Below are positions 33,213 to 57,802 of a stretch of 64,000 nucleotides of DNA, piece by piece (the stretch's first letter is position 1; each line of letters begins with the position of its first letter). Source of the DNA: a virus; IMG/VR virus record IMGVR_UViG_3300048694_001252, positions 32,001 to 96,000 of that record. The stretch is one strand, 5' to 3'. A model generated the notes under the pieces. It saw only the letters and a list, made by a program, of their open reading frames with translations. It was not told where the DNA came from and did not search any database. The translations under genes and the position numbers were made by a program.

Positions 33213-33286
33213 GCGCCCGAAGCTGATCGGATAGCCGGAGCCTCTAAAACTCCTGGTAGCGGGTTCGACTCCCGCCTGGCGCACCA
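33213..33286 (+). tRNA. Amber suppressor tRNA, anticodon CUA (33244-33246)
   Basis: Cloverleaf: acceptor GCGCCCG/CUGGCGC, D GCUG/UAGC, anticodon arm GGAGC-CUCUAAA-ACUCC, T arm GCGGG-UUCGACU-CCCGC, A73 and encoded CCA; 74 nt. Confidence 0.85.
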
Positions 33287-41592: not shown

Positions 41593-42366
41593 TTATGGGC
41601 TGTACCTATCTCCCCGGCCACCACCGCGGCGCGCACAATGATCACCGTGCCGGTGATACCAGCCACGAGCAATATCGCGATCACAGTGCGGGCAATGTAT
41701 CTTGACTCGTTTTTGGCCACGTTGCTTGGCTACTCTGCGTTCTACTACTTCTGGGTCTACTTTACGCCCCAACATCGCTTTTCTGAGTTTTTGTTTTTGT
41801 TCATCACTCATTGGAATACCTTTGTTGTGGGCTTGTTGTTTGCCTTTTTTGGCTTCGCTTATCTTACGGCGAGTTTCCTCTGATACCGCTTTACCATAAC
41901 GTCCATTTTTTTCTCCCTTGTGAGCTTCAGAGTTTTTGCGTCTATGATCTTCTGTTGCTATTTTGCCCTTATTCTTTCCAACATTTGATTGTCTAATTTT
42001 TTCAATTTGTTCTTTAGACTTAGGTTTACCTTTGTGAAACTCACTGATCTTACGACGACTCTCTTTAGTAGGTACAATATATCCCGCGACATTCTGATTG
42101 ATCCAACGATCATCTTCTAGCACGCGGCAGCGCCGTAACACTCTGGTTTCCCATGCTACTGCTTGTTCTCGAGTTTCAAACACCCGGCGTATCTCTACAT
42201 CAAAACTATCGCGGCCGGTCTCTTCAATCAACCGTTGTACTTTGGGACTGCTGGTAAAGTATTGGTGCCAGAGATCTTGCTCTGGTGGTAATTTGTTGGC
42301 ACTGCGTACCCCGTAATATACACGATTGGTAGGACGATGTCGGATTAGATATGTATAAGGTTTCAT
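41593..42366 (-). mobile_element. Free-standing GIY-YIG homing endonuclease with NUMOD3-type repeats (Seg-like)
   Basis: PYTYLI...YYGVR, YFTSS, conserved E and N; repeated SEETRRKISEA-type motifs; AT-rich 3' half; located between the capsid and fibre genes. Confidence 0.8.
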
Positions 42367-48521: not shown

Positions 48522-51311
48522 TTAATGCATCGACGAGCGAGCTATCTTGGCCGTGATTTCCGCACTGGTTTCGTGTGTGCGTTTGATGTTTCTCAAGAGA
48601 TCCAGCATTTCAATCTGATTGGGTTTGGGCTTGGCCAACTCGCTGGCCAGGTCTTTTATGGCCGTTTTGATATCAACCTTGACTGCATCGCGCAGATTTT
48701 GCTGCAATCGATCGGGGTTTGGCAGATCTCCCAGCTGCCGGATGATCTCACCTACTTCACCTAGATCCACGGGAATATTACCGCCCTTGAGTGGTATCAC
48801 AGCTTCAGCACCGGCCTCGCCCACGACACTGGGACCTAGAGCGATGCCTCCTCTGGCCAGTGCGGGTAGATCTTGCACAAACAGATCGTGTTCTTTTTGG
48901 CGTCTTTTTTGCAGAGTCGGATCTACCTTGCCACTGGCTTTGTTATAGAGCAGCATGGCATCAGCAGTTTCTTGATTGATGCGTTTGCCTCGATTGGTCA
49001 CGGTAGACAATACACCGTCACCAAGATTGTAGGCAAAGGATGTCATGGCATCTATCTGGTTTTGACCCCACTCTCGATCTTTGCCGACCGCAACAACCTT
49101 GGCAACTAGATTACCTATCCAGGTTGTGAGTCGTTTGTATGCTTCTTCTTTGTCAATAGTTTTTTTGCCCGAGATTTCATCAGGATCTTCGGTCCTGGTA
49201 CCATAACCAATGCTATATTGTGAATGATCTTTGTAGGCCTTGGCCCTGAATCCTTCAAATTGCATGATCATGTCAATACCTTGACTTGACACGTTTGAAA
49301 TTGGTACCTTTATTGTTTTGGCCGTAGATGATTTTTTCTTGGGCTCTAGAGGTTCACCCATGGCCAGACCGGATGTTTGTTTGGGGTTAGCAGCCGCTGG
49401 AGCAGGTGTTGGTGCTGGCATAGTAGCCGCAGGTTTAGTAGCTGCCGGAGCAGGTGTTGGTTCTGGCATAGTGGCCGCCGGAGCCGGTGCTGCTGGAGCA
49501 GGTGTTGGTGCTGGCATAGTGGCCGCTGGAGCCGGTGCCGCCGGAGCAGGTGTTGGTGCTGGCATAGTGGCCGCAGGTTTAGTAGCTGCCGGAGCAGATG
49601 TTGCGGGAGCAGGTGTTGCCGCCGGAGCAGGTGTTGGTGCTGGCATAGTGGCCGCAGTCTTGGGTGCAGCCTTTTGTTCTTGCTGTCGTTGAGCAGCATC
49701 CTCGGTGCGTTTTTCCTCGGCTCTCTTGTTCCTGAGATCAGCTTCTCTTTTTACGGCCTGATTCAATTCTTCTTTCTGTTGATCCTCACGCTGTTTCTTG
49801 GCTTCAGCATCTTGCTGTTTGGCCCGTTCTCGAGCAGCCTGCCCCTGATCCTGGGCCTGGGCCTTGGGTTCAAGCTCATCTTTTTGTCTCAATATCGTCT
49901 TGTTGAACCATTTGAGCGCTGTGGTAGCAGCCTCTAATCCCCAGGTCATGAGCCCAAACAGAGTACTCACAGGCCCGGCGCCGGCTCGTACAAATTCCTG
50001 CATGGCCAGGCTCAGTTCCAGTTGACTATTTCGTAGTTTGGCCTGTGCTTCGGTGGCAGGATCGGCCTGGCCACTCAGAGTTTTCTGTTGCTGTTTTACC
50101 AATTGCTGGTATTGCGCAGTAAGATCTTTGTTGGCCCGATTGCTGGCATTCACTACTTCATTGAGTGATCCAAAAGTTTCATTGAATGCCATGGATTGAC
50201 CATACATGCCACCAAATCGATCCTTGGTCTTGGCCATGGCATCAAAGGCCTTTTGCATGGCATCGGTGGGGCTTTTCAATCCCTTGCTTGCAGCCATGAG
50301 ATCATTGGCCGCATCAGCACCTATGGTCAATAGCAGTTTGCGAGCCGCGGGATCCTGGAGGTTGCCCGAAAACCAAGCTCTCAGGCCCTTGGCATACAAG
50401 GGTCCAGCAGAATTTTCCATGAGTGTGCTCATGGCCATCATGCTGCGAGCATCTTCTGAACGACCTTGGGCCTCGGCCTGATTTACAGCGGCCAAGAACT
50501 GTTCTTGAGTGAGCGCTTCGGCACGTTGCGTTTCTAATTCTTTGCGTGTGGCACCGGTCAATTGGGTCAGCACATTCATTTCTTGGATATACTCAGCTGC
50601 ACTATGTGCCACCTGCTGATCTGTGCGGCGGGTCGTGGCACCCATGAGATTCTGCTGATTTATATAACCGGCCACACCCTCATTGAGGTCGTTCACGGTC
50701 ATGCCCAGAGCCATATAACCTGTACGGTCTTTTTGCAGCTCTTTGCTGACCTGGGCAAATCGAGTTCGGCCTTCAGCTGCGGTACCACCAAACAGAGCCA
50801 GGCTACGACTATTGGCCGCTATCAGTTGAGCATAGCTCTGGAAATCTTTCATGACCAGACCCATGCTGGCCGCATCTTGGGCCGCACCGGTCATGCCATC
50901 TGCTGCTACTGCGCCCGATTTGCTGAGCGATTGGAACAGTTCAAACTGTTTGTCCAGCATGGCGCCAACGGCACGAGTGTACTCCACAAAAGCCGTGCTG
51001 GTCTTGAGTATGATACCAGCCAATCGAGTGTGCGGGAACCTCAAGAGTATGCTGCCCACGCTGCTCATGGCCTTGCTGCCCTCGGCTAGAGCACCATCAA
51101 AGGCCTTGTATCCCTGTTCACCGCGATAGAGATCGCCCGTGAGCTGCTTGACACTGCGCAGCATGTGGGACAGGGCTTCGCGGCGCAGACGATTTATTTC
51201 TTTTTGGTTGGCTTCGGCCGCGGCCGCGGCCTGTTCGGCATCTCGCGCAGCCTGCTCTTTTTCTTGCTGAAGCTTCTGGATGGCATCCAGCAGTTCTTTA
51301 TTGTCGGCCAT
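48522..51311 (-). CDS. Tape-measure-like protein with Pro/Ala/Thr linker and GH24 lysozyme domain
   Basis: Long Ala/Gln-rich helical region; MQFEGFRAKAYKD...SIGYGT...QIDAMTSFAYNLG...RRQKE; C-terminal GEAGAEAVIPL. Confidence 0.75.
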   Translation of the reverse strand: MADNKELLDAIQKLQQEKEQAARDAEQAAAAAEANQKEINRLRREALSHMLRSVKQLTGDLYRGEQGYKAFDGALAEGSKAMSSVGSILLRFPHTRLAGIILKTSTAFVEYTRAVGAMLDKQFELFQSLSKSGAVAADGMTGAAQDAASMGLVMKDFQSYAQLIAANSRSLALFGGTAAEGRTRFAQVSKELQKDRTGYMALGMTVNDLNEGVAGYINQQNLMGATTRRTDQQVAHSAAEYIQEMNVLTQLTGATRKELETQRAEALTQEQFLAAVNQAEAQGRSEDARSMMAMSTLMENSAGPLYAKGLRAWFSGNLQDPAARKLLLTIGADAANDLMAASKGLKSPTDAMQKAFDAMAKTKDRFGGMYGQSMAFNETFGSLNEVVNASNRANKDLTAQYQQLVKQQQKTLSGQADPATEAQAKLRNSQLELSLAMQEFVRAGAGPVSTLFGLMTWGLEAATTALKWFNKTILRQKDELEPKAQAQDQGQAARERAKQQDAEAKKQREDQQKEELNQAVKREADLRNKRAEEKRTEDAAQRQQEQKAAPKTAATMPAPTPAPAATPAPATSAPAATKPAATMPAPTPAPAAPAPAATMPAPTPAPAAPAPAATMPEPTPAPAATKPAATMPAPTPAPAAANPKQTSGLAMGEPLEPKKKSSTAKTIKVPISNVSSQGIDMIMQFEGFRAKAYKDHSQYSIGYGTRTEDPDEISGKKTIDKEEAYKRLTTWIGNLVAKVVAVGKDREWGQNQIDAMTSFAYNLGDGVLSTVTNRGKRINQETADAMLLYNKASGKVDPTLQKRRQKEHDLFVQDLPALARGGIALGPSVVGEAGAEAVIPLKGGNIPVDLGEVGEIIRQLGDLPNPDRLQQNLRDAVKVDIKTAIKDLASELAKPKPNQIEMLDLLRNIKRTHETSAEITAKIARSSMH
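49394..49657 (-). repeat. Tandem coding repeat (AATMPAPTPAPA...)
   Basis: Five to six near-identical units. Confidence 0.85.
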
Positions 51312-51350: not shown

Positions 51351-52193
51351 ATGACCCAAACTCCCAACCCTTTACAAGCCTGGTTTCGTCGTGCTGCGAT
51401 CTATATGCGTTTGCCCAGCCAGGGTCAACACTGGCCCGAAGGCTCACTGGACATGCCCGCAAACGGAGAATTTCCCGTGTTGCCCATGACCGCCCTGGAC
51501 GAAATTACCTACCGCACACCCGATGCTCTGTTCAATGGTCAGGCCGTGGTAGATGTGGTACAGAGCTGCCTGCCCAACATACGCGACGCCTGGCTCATGC
51601 CCAGTACCGATCTCATTAGCGTGTTGATCAGCATCAGGATCGCCAGCTACGGACAGGACATGGAAATTGTCAGTACCTGTCCCAAATGTAATGAAACCCA
51701 GGACTATACCCTGGATCTCAGACAGATCCTGGATGGGCTTAGCCAGGCCGATTTTGGTCAAAACCTGGTAATCAACGATCTGGAAGTGTTCTTTACACCC
51801 ATGAACTATCGTCAACAGACACAGATTGGCATGGATCAATACGAAACCCAGCGCCTGATAGCCAACAGTCAAGACGCAGCTCTAACCGATGATCAGAAAA
51901 ATCAGGCCCTGAACGAGGCCATGAAACGCATCAGCCAAGCCACCACTCGGGCCATGGCATTCGGCATAGCAGGCATACGAGCACCATCGGGCTTTGCCAG
52001 CGAGCCTGAACACATCATGGAATTCCTTACACAGTGCGATCGCCGTGTGTATGCAGCCATACGCGATCATCAGGTCACACTGCGCGAAGCCGGTGAGATC
52101 AAACCTGTAGATATCACTTGTAGCGGTTGTGAAAATCGATATCAACAACAGATTGAACTGGACCTGGCAAATTTTTTCGCAGCCGCCTCTTGA
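51351..52193 (+). CDS. Baseplate hub / tail assembly protein (T4 gp26-like)
   Basis: LPSQG, VLPMTALDE, LISIRIASYG, two CxxC motifs, C-terminal NFF. Confidence 0.7.
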   Translation: MTQTPNPLQAWFRRAAIYMRLPSQGQHWPEGSLDMPANGEFPVLPMTALDEITYRTPDALFNGQAVVDVVQSCLPNIRDAWLMPSTDLISVLISIRIASYGQDMEIVSTCPKCNETQDYTLDLRQILDGLSQADFGQNLVINDLEVFFTPMNYRQQTQIGMDQYETQRLIANSQDAALTDDQKNQALNEAMKRISQATTRAMAFGIAGIRAPSGFASEPEHIMEFLTQCDRRVYAAIRDHQVTLREAGEIKPVDITCSGCENRYQQQIELDLANFFAAAS

Positions 52194-52408
52194 TGCTGTC
52201 AGTTGGCGATATCGAAAAACAAATCACCAGCATGGAGCAAGAGGCGGCGGCAATCAGATCCAATTGCATGAAGATGGCCTGGCACATGCGCGGTGGCGCC
52301 AGTTACGAACACATACTGTTGATGAGCAGTCACGAACGCGAAGCCATTGGCAATCTCATCAAGGAAAATATCGAAACCACAAACAAGACTCGATTGCCTT
52401 GGTTCTGA
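52190..52408 (+). CDS. Baseplate hub assembly protein (gp51-like); possibly the -1 frameshift extension of the upstream gene
   Basis: WHMRGGASY...MS..ERE.I; lies in the -1 frame after A AAT TTT TTC. Confidence 0.65.
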   Translation: MMLSVGDIEKQITSMEQEAAAIRSNCMKMAWHMRGGASYEHILLMSSHEREAIGNLIKENIETTNKTRLPWF

Positions 52409-52420
52409 CTGGTAATAGAG

Positions 52421-52840
52421 AGATCTCTTGCGAGATCTGTTGATTCGCTTGCGCTCATCAACTGTTTCCGAGCGGAGCGATTTTTAGGATCATCTAGATG
52501 GAGTGGTCACACTTGGCCCGCACAGGGCCAAGATTGATCTGCACATCATCTGAGTATCGCAGTCACCTAGCGTTAGAGCATTACAGAGGCGGTTGTCCGG
52601 TACCTCGAGCTCCGTCTTATTACAACGGCGGCCTGCATCAAATACGCTAACATTCCATGCAGACGTGCACGATCACTCGTGCGTCATTGGGCCTTGATAT
52701 CCTGTTCTAACAATCAAACCCCGGCGTTTTGGGATCCTCGTCCTGTGAAGGATAGTGATTGAGAGCTCCTGCGGCGGAGTCTTTGGTCCCGGTGATCCGA
52801 TAGATCCCGTTGTCATCAGTGCACGAATTTGGCCTGCACT
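52421..52840 (-). ncRNA. Putative large structured non-coding RNA of unrecognised family
   Basis: No ORF of 60 aa or more lies within it; about ten helices; GNRA loops (GUGA, GCAA twice) and G-U pairs on the minus strand; potential pseudoknot UUAGCG/CGCUAG. Confidence 0.65.
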
Positions 52841-53279
52841 AGCCCTGACCGCTTAGTTTGCCTCGGATATGACTGCCATGCACACGTACCTGGATGTGGC
52901 CGTTGTAGTAGCTGTCACTCTCTAACACACGCTGACTAAATTGTTCTCTTGCTTCGATGTAGCTGCATTCTGCCCGGCTTTTGCAATAATAAAGTATTTC
53001 GCGCTGGAAGTTTTGGTTGCCTAGTTTTGCGATGTCTTGGAGCAGTTGGGGGCTAGACCCCCAATAGTCTCGCCAATCACTCTCGACTTGTGTGCGTATT
53101 TTGCGTTTTCGTTTGTTGCCGTTTTTGAATTTGACTGTGCGTTGCCTGGTCTTGCGAAATTGAGCTAGTTTTTTGCCTATGTACTTGCGCTGCGTGATGA
53201 GATTGGTTATTTCATATACAAAACCCGCACAATCTAGGGGCAGTTGTTCTACTGGGTTGCCTTGATATAGCCATGTCAT
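52839..53279 (-). CDS. Compact GIY-YIG nuclease (catalytic domain only)
   Basis: GFVYEITNLITQRKYIGKK, YWGSS, REIL, SYIE, YYN; basic insert KFKNGNKRKRKIR; no NUMOD tail. Confidence 0.8.
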   Translation of the reverse strand: MTWLYQGNPVEQLPLDCAGFVYEITNLITQRKYIGKKLAQFRKTRQRTVKFKNGNKRKRKIRTQVESDWRDYWGSSPQLLQDIAKLGNQNFQREILYYCKSRAECSYIEAREQFSQRVLESDSYYNGHIQVRVHGSHIRGKLSGQG

Positions 53280-53308
53280 AATGACATATAATTATGACAT
53301 TTGTGAAA

Positions 53309-53791
53309 TTATATGTTTTTTTCATAGACCCACCCTTGATTGTTGGTTTCCACGCTGTAGATCCAGGAAAATGTAGGCCATGTCCATTCCAGCCACCACT
53401 CACCGTTGAAACCTAGATAATTGCTGTGTATGATAGGTTCTACAGAGATACCACGTTCCTGCGCGTATTGATAGTAACTCGCGGTATACTCGGGTCGATA
53501 ACGTGTGTGTCGCATGAAACTGTCGTAAAAAAACTTTTCGATTCCTATGCGTTTTATTATAACAGCCTTGTCTCGACCATCGCGATTGTCGCTCTCCCGT
53601 TTGTTCAAAAAGAACACACTGAGTCTGTTGTGATCTAGAGCAGGCAGGGTCCAGGTAAATTCACTTTCGTTATCACACAGACCTTGATGTAACACACGGT
53701 CGTTGAATAGTATCTGTACGGCAGGAGGATCCTGCCATAACACTGGTTGTAAAACCAAGTCCAAAATCACATCACGTTCCGCAATAGCCAT
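53309..53791 (-). CDS. Hypothetical protein (160 aa)
   Basis: Overlaps the radical SAM gene; DKAVII.RIGIE and YLGFNGEW motifs; start placed at MAIAERD. Confidence 0.6.
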   Translation of the reverse strand: MAIAERDVILDLVLQPVLWQDPPAVQILFNDRVLHQGLCDNESEFTWTLPALDHNRLSVFFLNKRESDNRDGRDKAVIIKRIGIEKFFYDSFMRHTRYRPEYTASYYQYAQERGISVEPIIHSNYLGFNGEWWLEWTWPTFSWIYSVETNNQGWVYEKNI

Positions 53792-55091
53792 ATTGAGATA
53801 GTAGATTGTAATGAACCAGCGAATAATCGCGCAAGTTAATAGACTTGAGACGATCCCATTCATCTAGACGTTTGGCACACGTGGTCAGTAAATCATGAAC
53901 ATCTGCGGGTTCTGGTTGTTCAAGATATCTAATAATACTCTGACACTCGTTGCGTATACTGATGTTGATCCTACCGGGATCTTTTTGATTATTGAGTTGG
54001 GCCGAGTCTGTGCCCGGTACCCGATCTAGAATTGTTTGGATGTGTTTGATGGTCTCGCTCTTGATATGCTGTGGTAGTAACCGACCCACTTGCCAGGGTG
54101 GATTGATCATCAAACTGTTATCTATGGGAATGCCATGACTCCAAGCCCACTCGATCAAGTTGCCATATGTAGGTAAACTCAGGAGTCCGGGCACAGTTCT
54201 AATAGCCAGACTGGTGTTTTGTGGACGTTGATCTATAAGCACTTGGATATTTCGCAATATCTGCGATATATTGCCGCCTTGGCGTATATAATCACCGATG
54301 GTATCTACGCTTTCGATACTGATTCCAATTTCAGTCCGTTTGAACTGACCGAGACGCTTAAAATATCTAGTATAGTCCAAGCTACCATTGATGGTGAAAC
54401 TGAAGTTCACATCATGAGCATAGTTCCGGTCAATGAAGTAATCAAGCAACCAATCAAACCTGGGCATCAAACCCACTTCACCACCAATCACGTGTATGAC
54501 CTTGATTTGATGTGCCGAACTGTCAAGAAAATCCACAAAGTTTTTCCATCCTGTGGCATCATCGGACCAGTGCGTAAAATCACTGTCTGGCGGCAACCAA
54601 TTCAGCTGACGATGTTCCTGTTGTAGTTTGCTGCTGAAGTAAGGATTACACATCCTACAGGCAAAGTTACAGACATCACCAAGATTGATATGCAAACTAT
54701 GTGGTGTAGTTTCGGTCAGCCCTTGATTGAGTTCGCTGAATCTAAATCGGTGATAGTTGGGACTTTGAACATAACTTCTTTCAAATGAATCGTGGAATAT
54801 GACAGATTTCATGTTTTCTTTGCGCCGTATACTCTCATACCCAACAGCATCTTTGGTCTGACACATACGACACATGGGATCTGGGGTATCACCCAGCTTG
54901 ATCATGCGAGCCTGGCGCATACGTTCTCCATTCCAGTAATCCTGCATGGTAATGCGCTTGATGTTCCAGATCTTGCCCAGGGCGGTGCCTCGAATTTTGT
55001 CATTCTGGCAACCACAGAGGTCAAAACTACCATCATGATTGATGTTGAGTTCGTACCAGGGAACACCACAAAATATTTTACTGTTGGGCAT
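53772..55091 (-). CDS. Radical SAM protein with N-terminal SPASM/twitch-like Cys cluster
   Basis: C..PW...DG...CGC and CRMC, then CNFACRMC, IGGE, YIR.G. Confidence 0.85.
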   Translation of the reverse strand: MPNSKIFCGVPWYELNINHDGSFDLCGCQNDKIRGTALGKIWNIKRITMQDYWNGERMRQARMIKLGDTPDPMCRMCQTKDAVGYESIRRKENMKSVIFHDSFERSYVQSPNYHRFRFSELNQGLTETTPHSLHINLGDVCNFACRMCNPYFSSKLQQEHRQLNWLPPDSDFTHWSDDATGWKNFVDFLDSSAHQIKVIHVIGGEVGLMPRFDWLLDYFIDRNYAHDVNFSFTINGSLDYTRYFKRLGQFKRTEIGISIESVDTIGDYIRQGGNISQILRNIQVLIDQRPQNTSLAIRTVPGLLSLPTYGNLIEWAWSHGIPIDNSLMINPPWQVGRLLPQHIKSETIKHIQTILDRVPGTDSAQLNNQKDPGRINISIRNECQSIIRYLEQPEPADVHDLLTTCAKRLDEWDRLKSINLRDYSLVHYNLLSQYGYCGT

Positions 55092-56055
55092 TTTTACACT
55101 TGAGTTGACAGATCTCTACGGGATTGTGTTCCAGTCCATCCTGAAACTGCTGCCATAGCTGATGGTCGTTCATGATATCAAAAAACGAACGACGGCGTAT
55201 GCTCAAAAGATCACGATGTTGTCTTACGAATTCATTGTATTGATAATCACTGCTGAACCATGGGCAAGGTGAGACCACACCGTTGACTCCAATAAACAAA
55301 TCTTTTTTGTAGTTCAAACAACGTGCCCAGGCATGCGGAAACCGTGGTTCTGACACAGCGATAGCTGCATACTCACAGGGATTGATCACATCTATGTTGG
55401 CGTCATAGATTAGATTTTGAGATACCAGATCCGGTCTTGGCTTGAGACGGTCCAAACCATTTACACTATAGCTATGATCAAATTTGCTACTTTTCACAGT
55501 CTGGAACCAGTTACAACCTAGATCTCGAGCTAGATCGCGTATAGAATCTATATGATCTTGATTGAAGGCAAAGTAAATGGTGCTCCATTTGATTAGGCAA
55601 TCACTGCTGCGTCTCAGCGCACGAATACCTTCCTGGATGGTCGCAAAGTCACTGTTCACACGATACTGGTTGTTGCTGTGATCGTCCCAACCATCCACGC
55701 TGAATGTGACCATGTCGTTGCGATCTAACATGCGACCCAGTTGACTCCACCACTGGGCTTTTTTGTAACTGCCATTGGTGATAGTGCGGATACGAACATT
55801 GCTGTTTTGCTTGATGTAATTGATGATATCTAAAAAATCACTGGCATAGATGGGGTCACCTATGTCACCGCAGAACAGTATGTGTTTGATTCGTGCTAGT
55901 GTCTCGGGGGGGAATCCTCTTTGAAAATCTCCAAGACTGATTTCCTGATTGATGCGATCGAGATCAAGCTCGGTCCTGGGGCAACGTGGACATCTAAGCA
56001 CACATTTGCTACTGAGCTCAATGTGAATACTATCAGTGTTAAACAACGTCAACAT
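55078..56055 (-). CDS. Radical SAM protein with C-terminal Cys cluster
   Basis: CVLRCPRC, CGDIGDP, TNGS, FSVDG, PCPW, CQLKC; start placed at MLTLFN. Confidence 0.85.
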   Translation of the reverse strand: MLTLFNTDSIHIELSSKCVLRCPRCPRTELDLDRINQEISLGDFQRGFPPETLARIKHILFCGDIGDPIYASDFLDIINYIKQNSNVRIRTITNGSYKKAQWWSQLGRMLDRNDMVTFSVDGWDDHSNNQYRVNSDFATIQEGIRALRRSSDCLIKWSTIYFAFNQDHIDSIRDLARDLGCNWFQTVKSSKFDHSYSVNGLDRLKPRPDLVSQNLIYDANIDVINPCEYAAIAVSEPRFPHAWARCLNYKKDLFIGVNGVVSPCPWFSSDYQYNEFVRQHRDLLSIRRRSFFDIMNDHQLWQQFQDGLEHNPVEICQLKCKNAQQ

Positions 56056-57802
56056 CGGTATTATAGTTAGTAAACCCGCCCTCTTTGACCACACGCAGGA
56101 TATTCTCCACACGTCCAGCCAGCTCATCCCGGTGACTGACCAGCCAGATGCTCTTGTGGCGCTCGCGGCTCATCTTTTTCAGTAGAGCCAGACTGTTTTC
56201 TACACCTTGTGTATCCATGCCGGAATCTACCAGTTCATCTATGAATAGCACGTTGATGGTGCTGTAGAGGCTTTCCCATACATCCCGGAACGCCCAGCTC
56301 ATGCTCAAGATCAAGCGATTGCGTTCACCACGCGACAGATTATCAAAGTCCAGGTCACGACCCAGTTCAGTGATAGTGACCGAAAGATCGTTTTGGAATA
56401 TGACCTGATGCGGCAATCCTATGCGGTCCAGGTACCAGGTCAGTCTAGAGTTGAGATAGCTGAGATTCTGTTCTATGATCTTTTTACGGATAAAGCTGTC
56501 TTTGTTGGTAAGCAGCTTCAAGAGAAAGTCCTGATGCTCGTGCAGGCGAGTCAAAGTGTTGAGAGCGTCATAGGTCACGATCTGGAGAGCCTGATTCTGC
56601 ATGTCCGAGATCTGATCAGCATAGGGATCAATTTCGATCTGGCGCACAGCCAATTCACGGCGCAATTGTTCCAGGCTGTTGCGATGATTCAGGGCCTGCT
56701 CAAGATCATCGTAGAACATGGCGGGTGGCTTGCCCAATTCACCCAGCTCTCGCAACGTTGCCAGATGTTCCTGTTCCTGTGTATCTGCGGCCAACCATTG
56801 CAGGGCCGCTTCCTGCAGATGAGTCTGTTTTTCCTTGAGTATCTTGTCTTGCTTGTCGTCATGTATGTTCTGACCGCAGGCATAGCATTGGTGTTTGCTC
56901 AATTGATCGATTTCCCGTTCCAGCTGGCTCTGTTGCTTTTCCAGTTTGGTTTTGTCTGTGCGTATAGTGCGGAGATACTGGTTGCACTGATCGATCTGTT
57001 TCTTGACTTCGTTATAGCGATCCAGATCACGATGCGCCTGTATCTCCTGCTCAATGTCGATGTGTTCCAGTTCCTGTATCGAAGTCAGGAAAGCTGCACA
57101 GTCCTCGCGTTGCTTTTTACCCCAAAGAGTCTGGCGTTTGCGCAGACTTTCAATCTGTTCTTCGATACGTCGATTGGCCTCCTGCACGGCCCGGATACGC
57201 ATTTCTTCCTGAGTGATGCTGTCGCGGGTTTCACGATTGAGTTCTTTCACGCGATCAGCCCGCTCACTCAGTAGCGTGATGCCTAGCAGTTGTTCGATTA
57301 TGGCGCGCTGGTCATTGGCCTTGAGAGCTAGGAAAGGTTCAGTATAGGTATTGAGTGCCAATACATGACGGAACATGTCATGGCTGAGACCCAGGATTCG
57401 TTCTATTGCGGTTTGGGTTTCGCGGCTATCGCCCTGACTGTTGTCCTGTGAGGCCTGCTCTTCCTGATTCACATAGAATTTGAGCACGTTGGGCTTGCGA
57501 CCGCGCTCGATACGATAGTCCACACCGTTCACGGCAAATTCCAGGCTGACCAACATGTTTTTGGCATTGGTCTTGTTGATGAGATTGTCTCGGCGTATGT
57601 TAGTAAGAGCCTGACCATACAGTGCATAGCTCAGAGCATTGATGATCGTGGTCTTGCCAGTACCGTTCCGGCTGCCATCACCGCCCAGGTCTAGATTTTC
57701 ACCCAGGACCAAGGTAAGGTCCCGGCGATCAAAATTGATGGCTTGGGTAGCATTGCCCACGCTCATGAAGTTGCGTACTGTGAGATCTCGTATGTGTATC
57801 AT
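56039..57802 (-). CDS. gp46: Recombination endonuclease ATPase subunit (gp46/SbcC/Rad50-like)
   Basis: NGTGKTT, zinc hook CYACGQ, LSRGE, FIDE, SHR. Confidence 0.93.
   Translation of the reverse strand: MIHIRDLTVRNFMSVGNATQAINFDRRDLTLVLGENLDLGGDGSRNGTGKTTIINALSYALYGQALTNIRRDNLINKTNAKNMLVSLEFAVNGVDYRIERGRKPNVLKFYVNQEEQASQDNSQGDSRETQTAIERILGLSHDMFRHVLALNTYTEPFLALKANDQRAIIEQLLGITLLSERADRVKELNRETRDSITQEEMRIRAVQEANRRIEEQIESLRKRQTLWGKKQREDCAAFLTSIQELEHIDIEQEIQAHRDLDRYNEVKKQIDQCNQYLRTIRTDKTKLEKQQSQLEREIDQLSKHQCYACGQNIHDDKQDKILKEKQTHLQEAALQWLAADTQEQEHLATLRELGELGKPPAMFYDDLEQALNHRNSLEQLRRELAVRQIEIDPYADQISDMQNQALQIVTYDALNTLTRLHEHQDFLLKLLTNKDSFIRKKIIEQNLSYLNSRLTWYLDRIGLPHQVIFQNDLSVTITELGRDLDFDNLSRGERNRLILSMSWAFRDVWESLYSTINVLFIDELVDSGMDTQGVENSLALLKKMSRERHKSIWLVSHRDELAGRVENILRVVKEGGFTNYNTDVDVV

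What the first reader, a model, noticed from the sequence alone, without database searches (positions are those of the whole stretch)
52421..53279. Large structured ncRNA joined to the 3' end of a compact GIY-YIG gene: candidate RNA-associated nuclease
Seen in sequence: the largest non-coding gap in the window (~430 nt) starts at the TAG of a 146-aa GIY-YIG ORF and is packed with helices: 52818-23/52835-40, 52711-16/52756-61, 52741-52752, 52667-72/52677-82 (GUGA loop), 52631-38/52657-64, 52612-15/52625-28, 52586-92/52597-606, 52512-19/52525-32, 52439-44/52457-62 (tandem GA plus GCAA) and 52421-27/52432-38 (GCAA). Loop UUAGCG (52645-50) can pair with CGCUAG (52567-72) as a pseudoknot. GNRA loops and G-U pairs read correctly on the minus strand, the same strand as the gene. 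The protein lacks the NUMOD tail of the other GIY-YIG here but has a K/R-rich insert. Established precedent: IscB/omegaRNA, TnpB/reRNA and HEARO pair nucleases with adjacent RNAs. Inference: a ribonucleoprotein or an unknown ribozyme/structural RNA. A structured DNA site such as an origin is an alternative.
Basis: partly seen in the sequence, partly recalled or inferred. Interest (0 to 1): 0.85.

Follow-up and report, generated by a model that had tools for sequence, protein, structure and literature searches.

The report
Full-length Polynucleobacter-1 phage RNA, twin boxes
The gene-free stretch behind a small DNA-cutting enzyme gene of this uncultured giant T4-like freshwater phage encodes a real, roughly 425-base, multiply knotted non-coding RNA; only its first third was catalogued (function unknown), and the evidence argues that it is not a guide RNA tailored to that enzyme.

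Summary
Window 52421-52844 (minus strand) is a large structured RNA. Its 5' third (52708-52844) is Rfam RF01718, Polynucleobacter-1 (91 bits, full model). The other ~290 nt match no Rfam family, yet they are conserved and covary in over 200 IMG/VR loci. My 97-pair model with four pseudoknots is 88% paired across 73 distinct sequences (shuffles 74%, slid partners 34-40%).

The RNA has two parts:
- A swappable 5' domain, with at least seven unrelated types.
- A conserved 3' core that shows the same 7-13-nt box twice (52545-52555, 52489-52499). The two copies change in step between phages and have no complementary partner in the RNA or in the phage genomes searched.

The upstream 146-aa protein is a GIY-YIG catalytic domain alone. 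Adjacency is strong: 179 of 183 loci have a nuclease gene upstream, either GIY-YIG or an unrelated PDDEXK_15. However:
- 97-98.6% identical GIY-YIG proteins sit beside different RNA types.
- Cargo genes can separate gene and RNA.
- Cultured phages carry the protein without the RNA.

RNA guidance is therefore not supported and the function stays unknown. The scan found this RNA family earlier on other genomes.

The parts
52839..53279 (-). 146-aa stand-alone GIY-YIG catalytic-domain protein (SegE_GIY-YIG type), with no DNA-binding tail
   Evidence: Pfam PF19835, E 1.8e-32, residues 3-129. AlphaFold2 pLDDT 95. The best structural matches are all GIY-YIG nucleases: I-TevI catalytic domain Z 8.5, PD-T4-3 Z 7.2, UvrC N-domain Z 5.7, T4 EndoII Z 5.5. 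E109 and N126 are invariant and Y22, Y33 and R93 nearly so in 61 diverse relatives.
52421..52844 (-). Whole structured RNA (about 424 nt from PK0 to P14). The true 5' and 3' ends are unknown. It is probably co-transcribed with the GIY-YIG gene.
   Evidence: Homologous over its whole length in related loci. 97-pair structure, 88% paired, 74 pairs with double changes.
52708..52844 (-). 5' domain, type A = Rfam RF01718 Polynucleobacter-1 (PK0, P1-P6). It begins on the last sense codon and the TAG stop of the ORF.
   Evidence: cmscan 91.2 bits against a gathering score of 37, model positions 1-141 of 141. P1, P3, P4 and P6 are 96-100% paired with double changes; the P2 columns are misaligned by MAFFT.
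52691..52725 (-). PK2: the loop of P6 (52723-52725) pairs with 52691-52693, just 3' of the Rfam model's end
   Evidence: GCC/GGC changes to CCU/AGG and GCU/AGC in relatives. 72% of cells are paired on the MAFFT alignment.
52667..52682 (-). P7 hairpin with GUGA tetraloop
   Evidence: 5 of 6 pairs change on both sides.
52631..52664 (-). P8 long hairpin; its loop (52644-52650) forms PK1
   Evidence: 13 of 13 pairs change on both sides, 93% paired.
52567..52573 (-). 3' strand of pseudoknot PK1 (pairs with 52644-52650)
Evidence: 7 of 7 pairs change on both sides, 95% paired.
52576..52626 (-). P9 (52609-12/52576-79), P10 hairpin (52603-06/52586-89) and PK3 (52622-26 with the P10 loop 52592-96). This is the most conserved stretch of the family.
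   Evidence: 92-99% paired. The 18-mer of this hairpin retrieved 120 IMG/VR loci.
52545..52566 (-). Twin unit 1: pre-box GUGAC (52562-52566), spacer, box 1 = A-CUC-AGAUGAU (52545-52555)
   Evidence: The box pattern occurs only at the two boxes in the 115-kb record. Identity coupling with unit 2 is seen at 7 or more variable positions.
52512..52532 (-). P11 hairpin between the two boxes
   Evidence: 97% paired.
52489..52510 (-). Twin unit 2: pre-box GUGAC (52506-52510), spacer, box 2 = A-UCU-AGAUGAU (52489-52499)
   Evidence: Same 7-mer as box 1 in 187 of 195 loci that hold both boxes; 13 different words; the boxes lie 47-61 nt apart.
52439..52462 (-). P13 hairpin with tandem G.A/A.G and a GCAA loop
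   Evidence: Strong mutual information between its arms; 8 of 8 pairs change on both sides.
52421..52438 (-). P14 terminal hairpin with GCAA loop
   Evidence: The top covarying pairs of the whole RNA lie here.
52374..52401 (-). Terminator-like hairpin plus T-run, 20 nt after P14, inside the 3' end of the convergent gene 52190-52408(+). It is a possible 3' end of the transcript.
   Evidence: Consensus scan only; not tested further.

Best explanation
Shown:
- The gap encodes the full-length form of the orphan Polynucleobacter-1 RNA. It is a roughly 425-nt (perhaps 470-nt) non-coding RNA on the minus strand, at the end of the leftward gene block of an uncultured giant T4-like freshwater phage.
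- It has two parts. The 5' domain is exchangeable; here it is type A, which equals RF01718 (P1-P6, PK0, PK2). The 3' core is shared by all types (P7-P14, PK1, PK3).
- The core holds two copies of one 10-13-nt box on either side of hairpin P11. No pairing partner for the boxes was found.

Inferred:
- The RNA is read through from the GIY-YIG gene.
- It works in trans as an autonomous module. It presents the two identical boxes to a two-site partner whose specificity can be reset quickly. That partner is most likely a nucleic acid not encoded near the RNA, perhaps from the host, or else a dimeric binding factor that the RNA sequesters or scaffolds.
- The nuclease gene beside it is a neighbour at a recombination and insertion hot spot. 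It is not a protein that the RNA programmes.
For: A real, large RNA:
- Rfam hit on the first third.
- Homology over the whole length in 69 of 80 protein-selected loci and 203 of 215 loci in all.
- Covariation statistics, G.U bias for the minus strand, not coding.
- No Rfam match for the remainder or for the other RNA types.

Modular and swappable:
- At least seven unrelated 5'-domain clusters sit on one shared core.
- In genome pairs that are 88-96% identical up to the GIY-YIG stop codon, the alignment stops exactly there. It resumes about 60 nt before the RNA's 3' end.
- On the GIY-YIG tree the RNA type changes at least 17 times.

Twin boxes under selection to be alike:
- The 7-mers are identical in 187 of 195 loci although 13 different words occur and the word changes at least 47 times on the tree.
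- Identity coupling extends to the pre-box and the spacer, while CUC and UCU stay a fixed difference between the two boxes.
- No Watson-Crick partner column exists anywhere in the RNA.

Nuclease not tailored to the RNA:
- Proteins 97-98.6% identical sit beside different RNA types and words.
- About 30 loci have unrelated cargo ORFs between gene and RNA.
- Some RNAs follow a PDDEXK_15 gene instead, and some follow no nuclease (L090, L157).
- A long-form Seg-like homing endonuclease has landed at the same spot and cut off the start of the PDDEXK gene (L207).
- The protein occurs in 541 cultured-phage records. Three of them (Melnitz, phiN3, S-SRM01) were inspected and have no room for the RNA.
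Against: - No partner for the boxes was found. Neither the complement nor a third sense copy is enriched in the flanks (68 against 67.9 expected; 100 against 90.5), in the 115-kb record or in two complete 346-kb genomes.
- There are no expression data, so the ends and the existence of a stable RNA are inferred.
- In 179 of 183 loci a nuclease gene of one of two unrelated families lies within 2 kb upstream on the same strand. In the few records tested the two families look like alternatives. A functional tie to 'a nuclease' would also predict this.
- All loci come from one phage group with fixed gene order, so linkage tests have little power either way.
Confidence: 0.5

Rival explanations
1. 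Nuclease-linked RNA. The RNA binds the adjacent nuclease (GIY-YIG, or PDDEXK_15 in other phages) and guides, activates, restrains (antitoxin-like) or localises it. The protein would dock as a dimer on the constant parts of the two boxes.
For: - The RNA starts on the ORF's stop codon.
- 179 of 183 RNA loci have a nuclease gene upstream, and 59 of 67 loci picked by the RNA alone have GIY-YIG upstream.
- Two unrelated nuclease families occupy the same place. They were not found together intact.
- PDDEXK-linked RNAs have 5' domains of their own.
- The protein has no DNA-binding domain but carries a basic beta-hairpin.
Against: - Nearly identical proteins pair with unrelated 5' domains and different words.
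- Cargo genes separate gene and RNA in about 30 loci.
- RNA occurs without either nuclease in a 92.6-kb fragment.
- Cultured phages carry the protein (541 records); the three inspected have no room for the RNA.
- No guide-like variable end, and no genomic match to the words.
- A protein reader does not explain why freely varying positions stay identical in both boxes.
Confidence: 0.17
2. Cis-acting transcript-end element. The structure is a long 3' UTR that stabilises the upstream operon's mRNA against 3' exonucleases, or insulates early leftward transcription from the convergent late baseplate genes.
For: It lies at the end of a transcription unit, facing convergent genes in nearly every locus. 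A terminator-like hairpin follows it. The last two GNRA hairpins are the part kept when RNA bodies are swapped.
Against: Four pseudoknots and 19 helices are far more than a 3' end needs. The twin-box identity coupling has no role in this model. In L085 the RNA lies upstream of a gene on the same strand.
Confidence: 0.12
3. Strand-transfer or template RNA. The two identical boxes are a terminal redundancy that lets a nascent strand, or a cut-and-rejoin reaction, realign from box 1 to box 2. This would resemble telomerase templates or rolling-circle reverse transcription of DRT2 RNAs (comparison from memory), and would copy or excise the roughly 55-nt unit that holds P11.
For: Selection for sameness whatever the sequence is what realignment requires. 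187 of 195 loci have identical words, and the spacing is narrow, 47-61 nt. No outside partner was found.
Against: No reverse transcriptase or RNA-dependent polymerase was seen near the locus. No variants with a single box (the deleted form) occur among 195 loci. Identity coupling also covers positions outside the would-be repeat unit.
Confidence: 0.05
4. Ribozyme. The RNA cleaves or processes itself, for example to free itself from the nuclease mRNA or at the two boxes.
For: Its size, its pseudoknots and its many invariant unpaired nucleotides are ribozyme-like (55 invariant columns).
Against: No match to any ribozyme family in Rfam at E up to 10. Nothing here tests catalysis.
Confidence: 0.05
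5. DNA-level element. The region is an origin, a packaging site or a recombination site, and the boxes are protein-binding direct repeats in DNA.
For: Direct repeats with identical cores resemble recombination sites, and the region is a recombination hot spot.
Against: Compensatory changes keep Watson-Crick and G.U pairs on one strand only (504 G.U against 155 A.C). GNRA loops read correctly only on the minus strand. Fifty-five bp is very short for DNA looping (background knowledge).
Confidence: 0.03

Closest known systems
Polynucleobacter-1 RNA motif (Rfam RF01718; Weinberg et al. 2010, Genome Biol 11:R31, PMC2864571)
   Same: Window 52708-52844(-) matches the whole 141-position model at 91 bits. 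As the authors noted, it lies downstream of one conserved gene family. The environment is fresh water, as for the published examples.
   Different: The published motif is only the 5' third. The RNA continues for about 290 nt with three more pseudoknots and the twin boxes. The last Rfam hairpin's loop pairs with bases outside the model (PK2). The authors found it in no purified phage, whereas here it sits in T4-like phage genomes. The neighbouring gene is here identified as a GIY-YIG nuclease. Sister RNAs carry unrelated 5' domains that RF01718 does not detect.
Large ornate bacterial and phage RNAs of unknown function (GOLLD, ROOL, HEARO, OLE, raiA; Rfam; cryo-EM in PMC12286853)
   Same: Several hundred nucleotides, many covarying helices and pseudoknots, found in phage or environmental DNA, no known function.
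   Different: No sequence or structure match to any of them at E up to 10. This RNA is modular with swappable 5' domains, and it has identity-coupled twin boxes. I know of no such boxes in those RNAs (from memory, not tested).
OMEGA systems (IscB/omegaRNA = HEARO, TnpB/reRNA)
   Same: A structured RNA begins at the 3' end of a compact nuclease gene.
   Different: The nuclease is GIY-YIG rather than RuvC/HNH. There is no variable guide at an RNA end. Protein and RNA do not co-evolve. The RNA can be separated from the gene or can follow a different nuclease.
Free-standing Seg-type homing endonucleases of T4 (SegA-G), which sit beside conserved genes; SegB lies in the tRNA gene cluster (from memory)
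   Same: The same catalytic domain family (PF19835). A true long-form relative with NUMOD3 has inserted at this very spot in L207. The locus is a mosaic hot spot.
   Different: The 146-aa protein has no DNA-binding tail. It is near-universal in this phage group and in cyanophages rather than sporadic. It is more conserved than its neighbours.

Membership tests
Rfam RF01718 Polynucleobacter-1 | Covariance-model score above the curated gathering score, over the whole model | tested here: met
   91.2 bits against 37; E 3.4e-18 for the whole window; model positions 1-141 of 141.
Rfam RF01718 Polynucleobacter-1 | Consensus helices kept by compensatory changes | tested here: met
   P1 99.7%, P3 96%, P4 98% and P6 99% paired, with changes on both sides. 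The P2 columns are misaligned by MAFFT.
Rfam RF01718 Polynucleobacter-1 | Lies downstream of the gene family noted by the authors (GOS11034, possible homology to PSSM2_218) | tested here: inconclusive
   It lies downstream of a conserved PF19835 gene whose relatives are common in cyanophages. I could not check that GOS11034 is this family.
GIY-YIG nuclease superfamily (Pfam PF19835 SegE_GIY-YIG) | Profile match above the cut-off | tested here: met
   112.6 bits against 25, residues 3-129.
GIY-YIG nuclease superfamily (Pfam PF19835 SegE_GIY-YIG) | GIY-YIG fold | tested here: met
   pLDDT 95. The top four structural matches are GIY-YIG enzymes: I-TevI Z 8.5, rmsd 2.6 over 82 residues; PD-T4-3 Z 7.2; UvrC Z 5.7; EndoII Z 5.5.
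GIY-YIG nuclease superfamily (Pfam PF19835 SegE_GIY-YIG) | Conserved catalytic residues (two Tyr, Arg, Glu, Asn) | tested here: met
   GFVY (19-22) and YIGKK (33-37) are present. E109 and N126 are invariant and Y22, Y33 and R93 at least 90% conserved in 61 relatives. Equivalence to I-TevI residues was not checked by superposition.
Free-standing homing endonuclease (Seg type) | DNA-binding tail (NUMOD, IENR1 or helix-turn-helix) after the catalytic domain | tested here: not met
   146 aa, with 17 residues after the domain and no second Pfam hit. By contrast window 41593-42366 and L207 have NUMOD3.
Free-standing homing endonuclease (Seg type) | Sporadic presence among close relatives | tested here: not met
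   Present upstream of the RNA in 165 of 183 loci and in 541 cultured-phage records.
RNA-guided nuclease systems (OMEGA-like) | Variable guide segment at one end of a conserved scaffold, matching target or flanking DNA | tested here: not met
   The only rapidly varying words are internal and duplicated. Neither they nor their complements are enriched in the flanks or in whole genomes.
RNA-guided nuclease systems (OMEGA-like) | Nuclease and RNA scaffold inherited and evolving together | tested here: not met
   Proteins 97-98.6% identical sit with different RNA types. The breakpoint lies at the stop codon. At least 17 type switches occur on the protein tree.
RNA-guided nuclease systems (OMEGA-like) | RNA-dependent DNA cleavage | not testable with these tools
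   Needs biochemistry.
Known large or catalytic RNA families in Rfam 15 (GOLLD, ROOL, HEARO, OLE, raiA, group I/II introns, RNase P, small ribozymes) | Covariance-model match | tested here: not met
   No hit other than RF01718 at E up to 10 in 52300-53400. None at E up to 1 in six loci with other RNA types.

The most novel reading that the evidence does not exclude
The RNA and the nuclease next to it (GIY-YIG or PDDEXK_15) form a new kind of programmable system. The twin boxes would be paired specificity words that address two half-sites or both strands of a target in a host or a rival phage. The 5' domains would be exchangeable adaptor modules. The identical words would then be reset by selection from the target, not by the protein.
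Probability: 0.07. Interest if true: 0.95.

Novelty: new variant of a known kind. Interest (0 to 1): 0.6.

Why it matters
- Large, intricately folded RNAs without a known job are rare. This one turns a 141-nt orphan motif catalogued in 2010 into a roughly 425-nt, four-pseudoknot, two-domain RNA.
- The RNA is common in giant freshwater T4-like phages: more than 200 loci were fetched here.
- Two features give concrete handles for experiments. Whole 5' domains are swapped between otherwise near-identical genomes, and two copies of one short word change in step. Sameness under selection, whatever the sequence, points to base pairing or strand realignment with a partner still to be found.
- The work corrects an attractive but unsupported idea, an RNA-guided GIY-YIG nuclease.
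- It also shows that the 'NAD synthetase' label on this protein family in many cultured phage records is wrong.

Tried and rejected
1. Known RNA family for 52421-52707: none at E up to 10. None for type B, C or PDDEXK-linked RNAs.
2. Similar DNA in cultured phages: blastn found none.
3. Coding reading, including read-through of the ORF's TAG by the phage's amber-suppressor tRNA. Rejected because relatives end in TAA, indels are not multiples of three, and the frame is open in 1 of 73 sequences.
4. Cis partner for the boxes. Exact reverse complements within -1500 to +800 show no consistent position. Own-word copies in the flanks are at background level. Mutual information over the core (159 sequences) and over full-length type A (76 sequences) finds no Watson-Crick partner.
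5. Genome-wide partner: none in G000, and control frequency in two complete genomes.
6. Mini-ORF or translational-bypass reading of the units (GUG/AUG ... codon plus UGA/UAA). Rejected because spacer lengths vary out of frame, in-frame stops occur, and words such as AACGAAU, ACGAAAU and AUGAAGA break the stop-codon pattern.
7. C/D-box or CsrA-site reading of the boxes. The G-to-A variants at the critical positions do not fit. This was judged from memory of those motifs, not tested.
8. Deleted single-box variants: none among 195 loci.
9. Bacterial homes for the RNA. Of 120 genome hits to the 18-mer, only 4 are real, and all are short MAG contigs.
10. PDB sequence search for the protein: nothing. 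Foldseek was weak. VIA-align was clear.
Full report
WHAT IS THERE

The window is bases 32001-96000 of a 115-kb IMG/VR virus record (CheckV 33% complete). It carries T4-type baseplate, gp46-like and radical-SAM genes. ORF 52839-53279(-) is a 146-aa protein whose residues 3-129 match Pfam PF19835 SegE_GIY-YIG (E 1.8e-32). Behind it, on the same strand, lie about 430 nt without a conserved ORF. They run up to the convergent genes 52190-52408(+) and 51351-52193(+, T4_baseplate).

Rfam places RF01718, Polynucleobacter-1 RNA, at 52708-52844(-): 91.2 bits against a gathering score of 37, over the full model. The model's first bases are the last sense codon and the TAG stop of the ORF. Nothing else in 52300-53400 matches any of the 4227 families at E up to 10.

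The only paper in the library that names the motif is Weinberg et al. 2010 (PMC2864571). Its supplement says that the motif lies downstream of genes of family GOS11034, that its 3' half is not always detected, and that it was found in no purified phage.

THE RNA IS MUCH LARGER THAN THE RFAM MOTIF

The protein has at least 600 relatives in IMG/VR. With the whole gap as query, nhmmer finds homologous DNA in 69 of the 80 loci kept. It is always on the gene's strand, and in many loci it spans all 430 nt.

An alignment of 28, then 73, distinct full-length sequences shows compensatory changes from end to end. I wrote a 97-pair structure: P1-P11, P13 and P14 plus four pseudoknots, with coordinates. 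I scored it on the sequence-only MAFFT alignment A1:
- 88.1% of cells form standard pairs, against 73.8% in shuffles (0 of 500 reach it) and 34-40% when partners are slid.
- 74 pairs change on both sides.
- G.U cells outnumber A.C cells 504 to 155, so the minus strand is the RNA strand.
- The region is not coding.

Only its hairpin 52612-15/52625-28 is replaced, by P9 and PK3.

ANATOMY

The 5' domain (52708-52844) is the Rfam motif, with two additions:
- PK0: the bases just before P1 pair with the P1 loop.
- PK2: the loop of the last Rfam hairpin pairs with 52691-52693, outside the model.

The 3' core contains:
- P7, with a GUGA loop.
- The long hairpin P8, whose loop forms PK1 with 52567-52573.
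- P9/P10 with the H-type knot PK3.
- Two units, each made of a pre-box GUGAC, a spacer and a box. They flank hairpin P11.
- A small variable hairpin.
- P13, with tandem G.A and a GCAA loop.
- P14, with a GCAA loop.

A terminator-like hairpin follows at 52384-52401 (consensus scan only).

MODULARITY

Twenty loci that keep the core have no RF01718 match at all. Clustering of the 230 nt ahead of the core gives at least seven unrelated 5' domains:
- A: 106 loci
- B: 63 loci
- C: 9 loci
- Three PDDEXK-linked types
- Others

A profile of the core hits 203 of 215 viral loci.

Pairs of genomes that are 88-96% identical through the GIY-YIG gene lose all alignment exactly at its stop codon. They regain it about 60 nt before the RNA's 3' end. 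The RNA body is therefore exchanged as a cassette.

TWIN BOXES

Box 1 (52545-52555) reads A-CUC-AGAUGAU and box 2 (52489-52499) reads A-UCU-AGAUGAU.
- Thirteen different 7-mers occur across loci.
- In 187 of the 195 loci that hold both boxes the two copies are identical; the other eight differ by one letter.
- The coupling is identity, not complementarity. It extends to the two or three bases before CUC/UCU and to the first base of the pre-box. CUC against UCU stays a fixed difference.
- On the protein tree the word changes at least 47 times.
- I found no Watson-Crick partner column in the RNA.
- I found no enrichment of the complement or of extra copies in the flanks.
- There is no other copy in the 115-kb record, and only background frequency in two complete 346-kb genomes.

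Several readings were tried and dropped: mini-ORF, translational bypass, stop-codon mimic, C/D box and CsrA site.

RELATION TO THE NUCLEASE

Evidence for a tie:
- In loci chosen by an RNA motif alone, 59 of 67 have the GIY-YIG gene upstream.
- Over all loci, 165 have GIY-YIG, 9 have an unrelated PF24608 PDDEXK_15 endonuclease, 5 have both and 4 have neither.
- Ten of twelve close PDDEXK_15 relatives carry the core downstream.
- Two complete GIY-YIG-type genomes lack PDDEXK_15, and PDDEXK-type fragments lack GIY-YIG.

Evidence against a tie:
- Gene order is fixed in this phage group: radical-SAM genes, GIY-YIG, RNA, then a variable 0-2 kb, then convergent baseplate genes. Adjacency alone therefore says little.
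- About 30 loci have unrelated ORFs between gene and RNA.
- Proteins 97-98.6% identical sit beside type A, B or C RNAs with different words.
- The RNA type switches at least 17 times on the protein tree.
- The 'both' loci are PDDEXK-type loci in which a 357-aa long-form Seg-like endonuclease with NUMOD3 has landed and removed the first ~35 codons of the PDDEXK gene. The spot is thus an insertion site for homing-type genes.
- The protein family is very large: at least 8000 90%-identity clusters and 2035 50%-identity clusters, mostly 135-165 aa.
- The family is present in 541 cultured-phage records, often mislabelled 'NAD synthetase'. In Melnitz, phiN3 and S-SRM01 the next gene follows within 28-148 nt, so there is no room for the RNA.

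THE PROTEIN

AlphaFold2 gives a confident model (pLDDT 95). The best matches are GIY-YIG nucleases: I-TevI catalytic domain Z 8.5, PD-T4-3 Z 7.2, UvrC Z 5.7 and T4 EndoII Z 5.5. The K/R-rich stretch is a long beta-hairpin that belongs to the family's domain; it is not an insert. E109 and N126 are invariant. The protein is a catalytic domain without a DNA-binding tail, unlike the window's second GIY-YIG gene (41593-42366, NUMOD3).

READING

What is shown:
- A real, large, modular, multiply pseudoknotted phage RNA whose first third is RF01718.
- Twin boxes under selection to be alike.
- Cassette exchange of the RNA body.
- Positional but not evolutionary coupling to the nuclease.

What is inferred:
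- The RNA acts in trans through the two boxes on a two-site partner that can be re-specified quickly. Most likely this is a nucleic acid not encoded nearby.
- The nuclease is a neighbour at a hot spot.

I give this reading about 0.5. A nuclease-linked role gets about 0.17. Smaller shares go to a cis transcript-end role, a strand-transfer template, a ribozyme and a DNA site.

Earlier notes of this scan describe the same RNA family on other genomes and reach the same broad verdict. I saw the twin boxes, before reading those notes, and I tested their claims again here. A word search of the notes returned nothing on three results: the PDDEXK_15 alternative, the long-form endonuclease insertion, and the breakpoints at the stop codon.

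Noticed in passing
window 33213-33286 (+): tRNA with anticodon CUA (amber suppressor; ARAGORN calls it tRNA-Pyl). Another agent of this scan has already followed it up (e1-6004213). The GIY-YIG ORF here ends in TAG, but relatives end in TAA and the downstream frame is not conserved, so read-through into the RNA is unlikely.
   Followed up: partly
window 41593-42366 (-): Second GIY-YIG gene of the window: 257 aa with SegE_GIY-YIG plus two NUMOD3 motifs. This is an ordinary long-form Seg-like homing endonuclease.
   Followed up: partly
L207:1415-2920 (also L200, L208-L210): A 357-aa Seg-like GIY-YIG/NUMOD3 gene ends at 2488. Directly after it the PDDEXK_15 frame continues without its first ~35 codons or a start codon. 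This looks like a homing-endonuclease insertion that truncated the resident nuclease gene just upstream of the RNA.
   Followed up: partly
L099:3893-4423 (-), L134, L204-L214: A PF24608 PDDEXK_15 'phage putative endonuclease' gene takes the place of the GIY-YIG gene directly upstream of the RNA core. In L085 the RNA core lies upstream of such a gene instead.
   Followed up: partly
L035:3426-4199, L078:3432-4250, L027:3426-4451, L031:3426-3692 and others: Unrelated cargo ORFs (257, 272, 337 and 88 aa; the last has a CxxC zinc-ribbon-like end) are inserted between the GIY-YIG stop codon and the RNA in about 30 loci. None was identified.
   Followed up: no
cultured phage records, e.g. NC_028945.1 165973-166389, NC_041997.1, NC_027204.1: Homologues of this GIY-YIG protein are annotated 'NAD synthetase' in many RefSeq phage records. 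The Pfam match and the fold show a GIY-YIG nuclease domain.
   Followed up: partly
L268, L286 (MAG Haliscomenobacter sp. EUL_031), L247 (MAG Flavobacteriales EUL_069), L318: The only true RNA-core hits in 185,579 prokaryote genomes are MAG contigs. They are either phage DNA binned with a MAG or a hint of Bacteroidota hosts.
   Followed up: no
window 53772-56127 (-): Two radical-SAM/SPASM genes (439 and 349 aa) and a 184-aa ORF lie just upstream of the GIY-YIG gene. Radical-SAM relatives keep this position in most related loci.
   Followed up: no
window 48522-51311 (-): A 929-aa ORF with a long run of PAPTPAPA repeats in its middle. It is homologous to a gene that follows the baseplate genes in relatives.
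   Followed up: no
L090 (92.6-kb record) and L157 (46.5-kb record): The RNA core occurs in quite different surroundings: after a 98-aa ORF with no Pfam match in L090, and between metabolic-looking genes in L157. Neither nuclease family is present in these records.
   Followed up: partly
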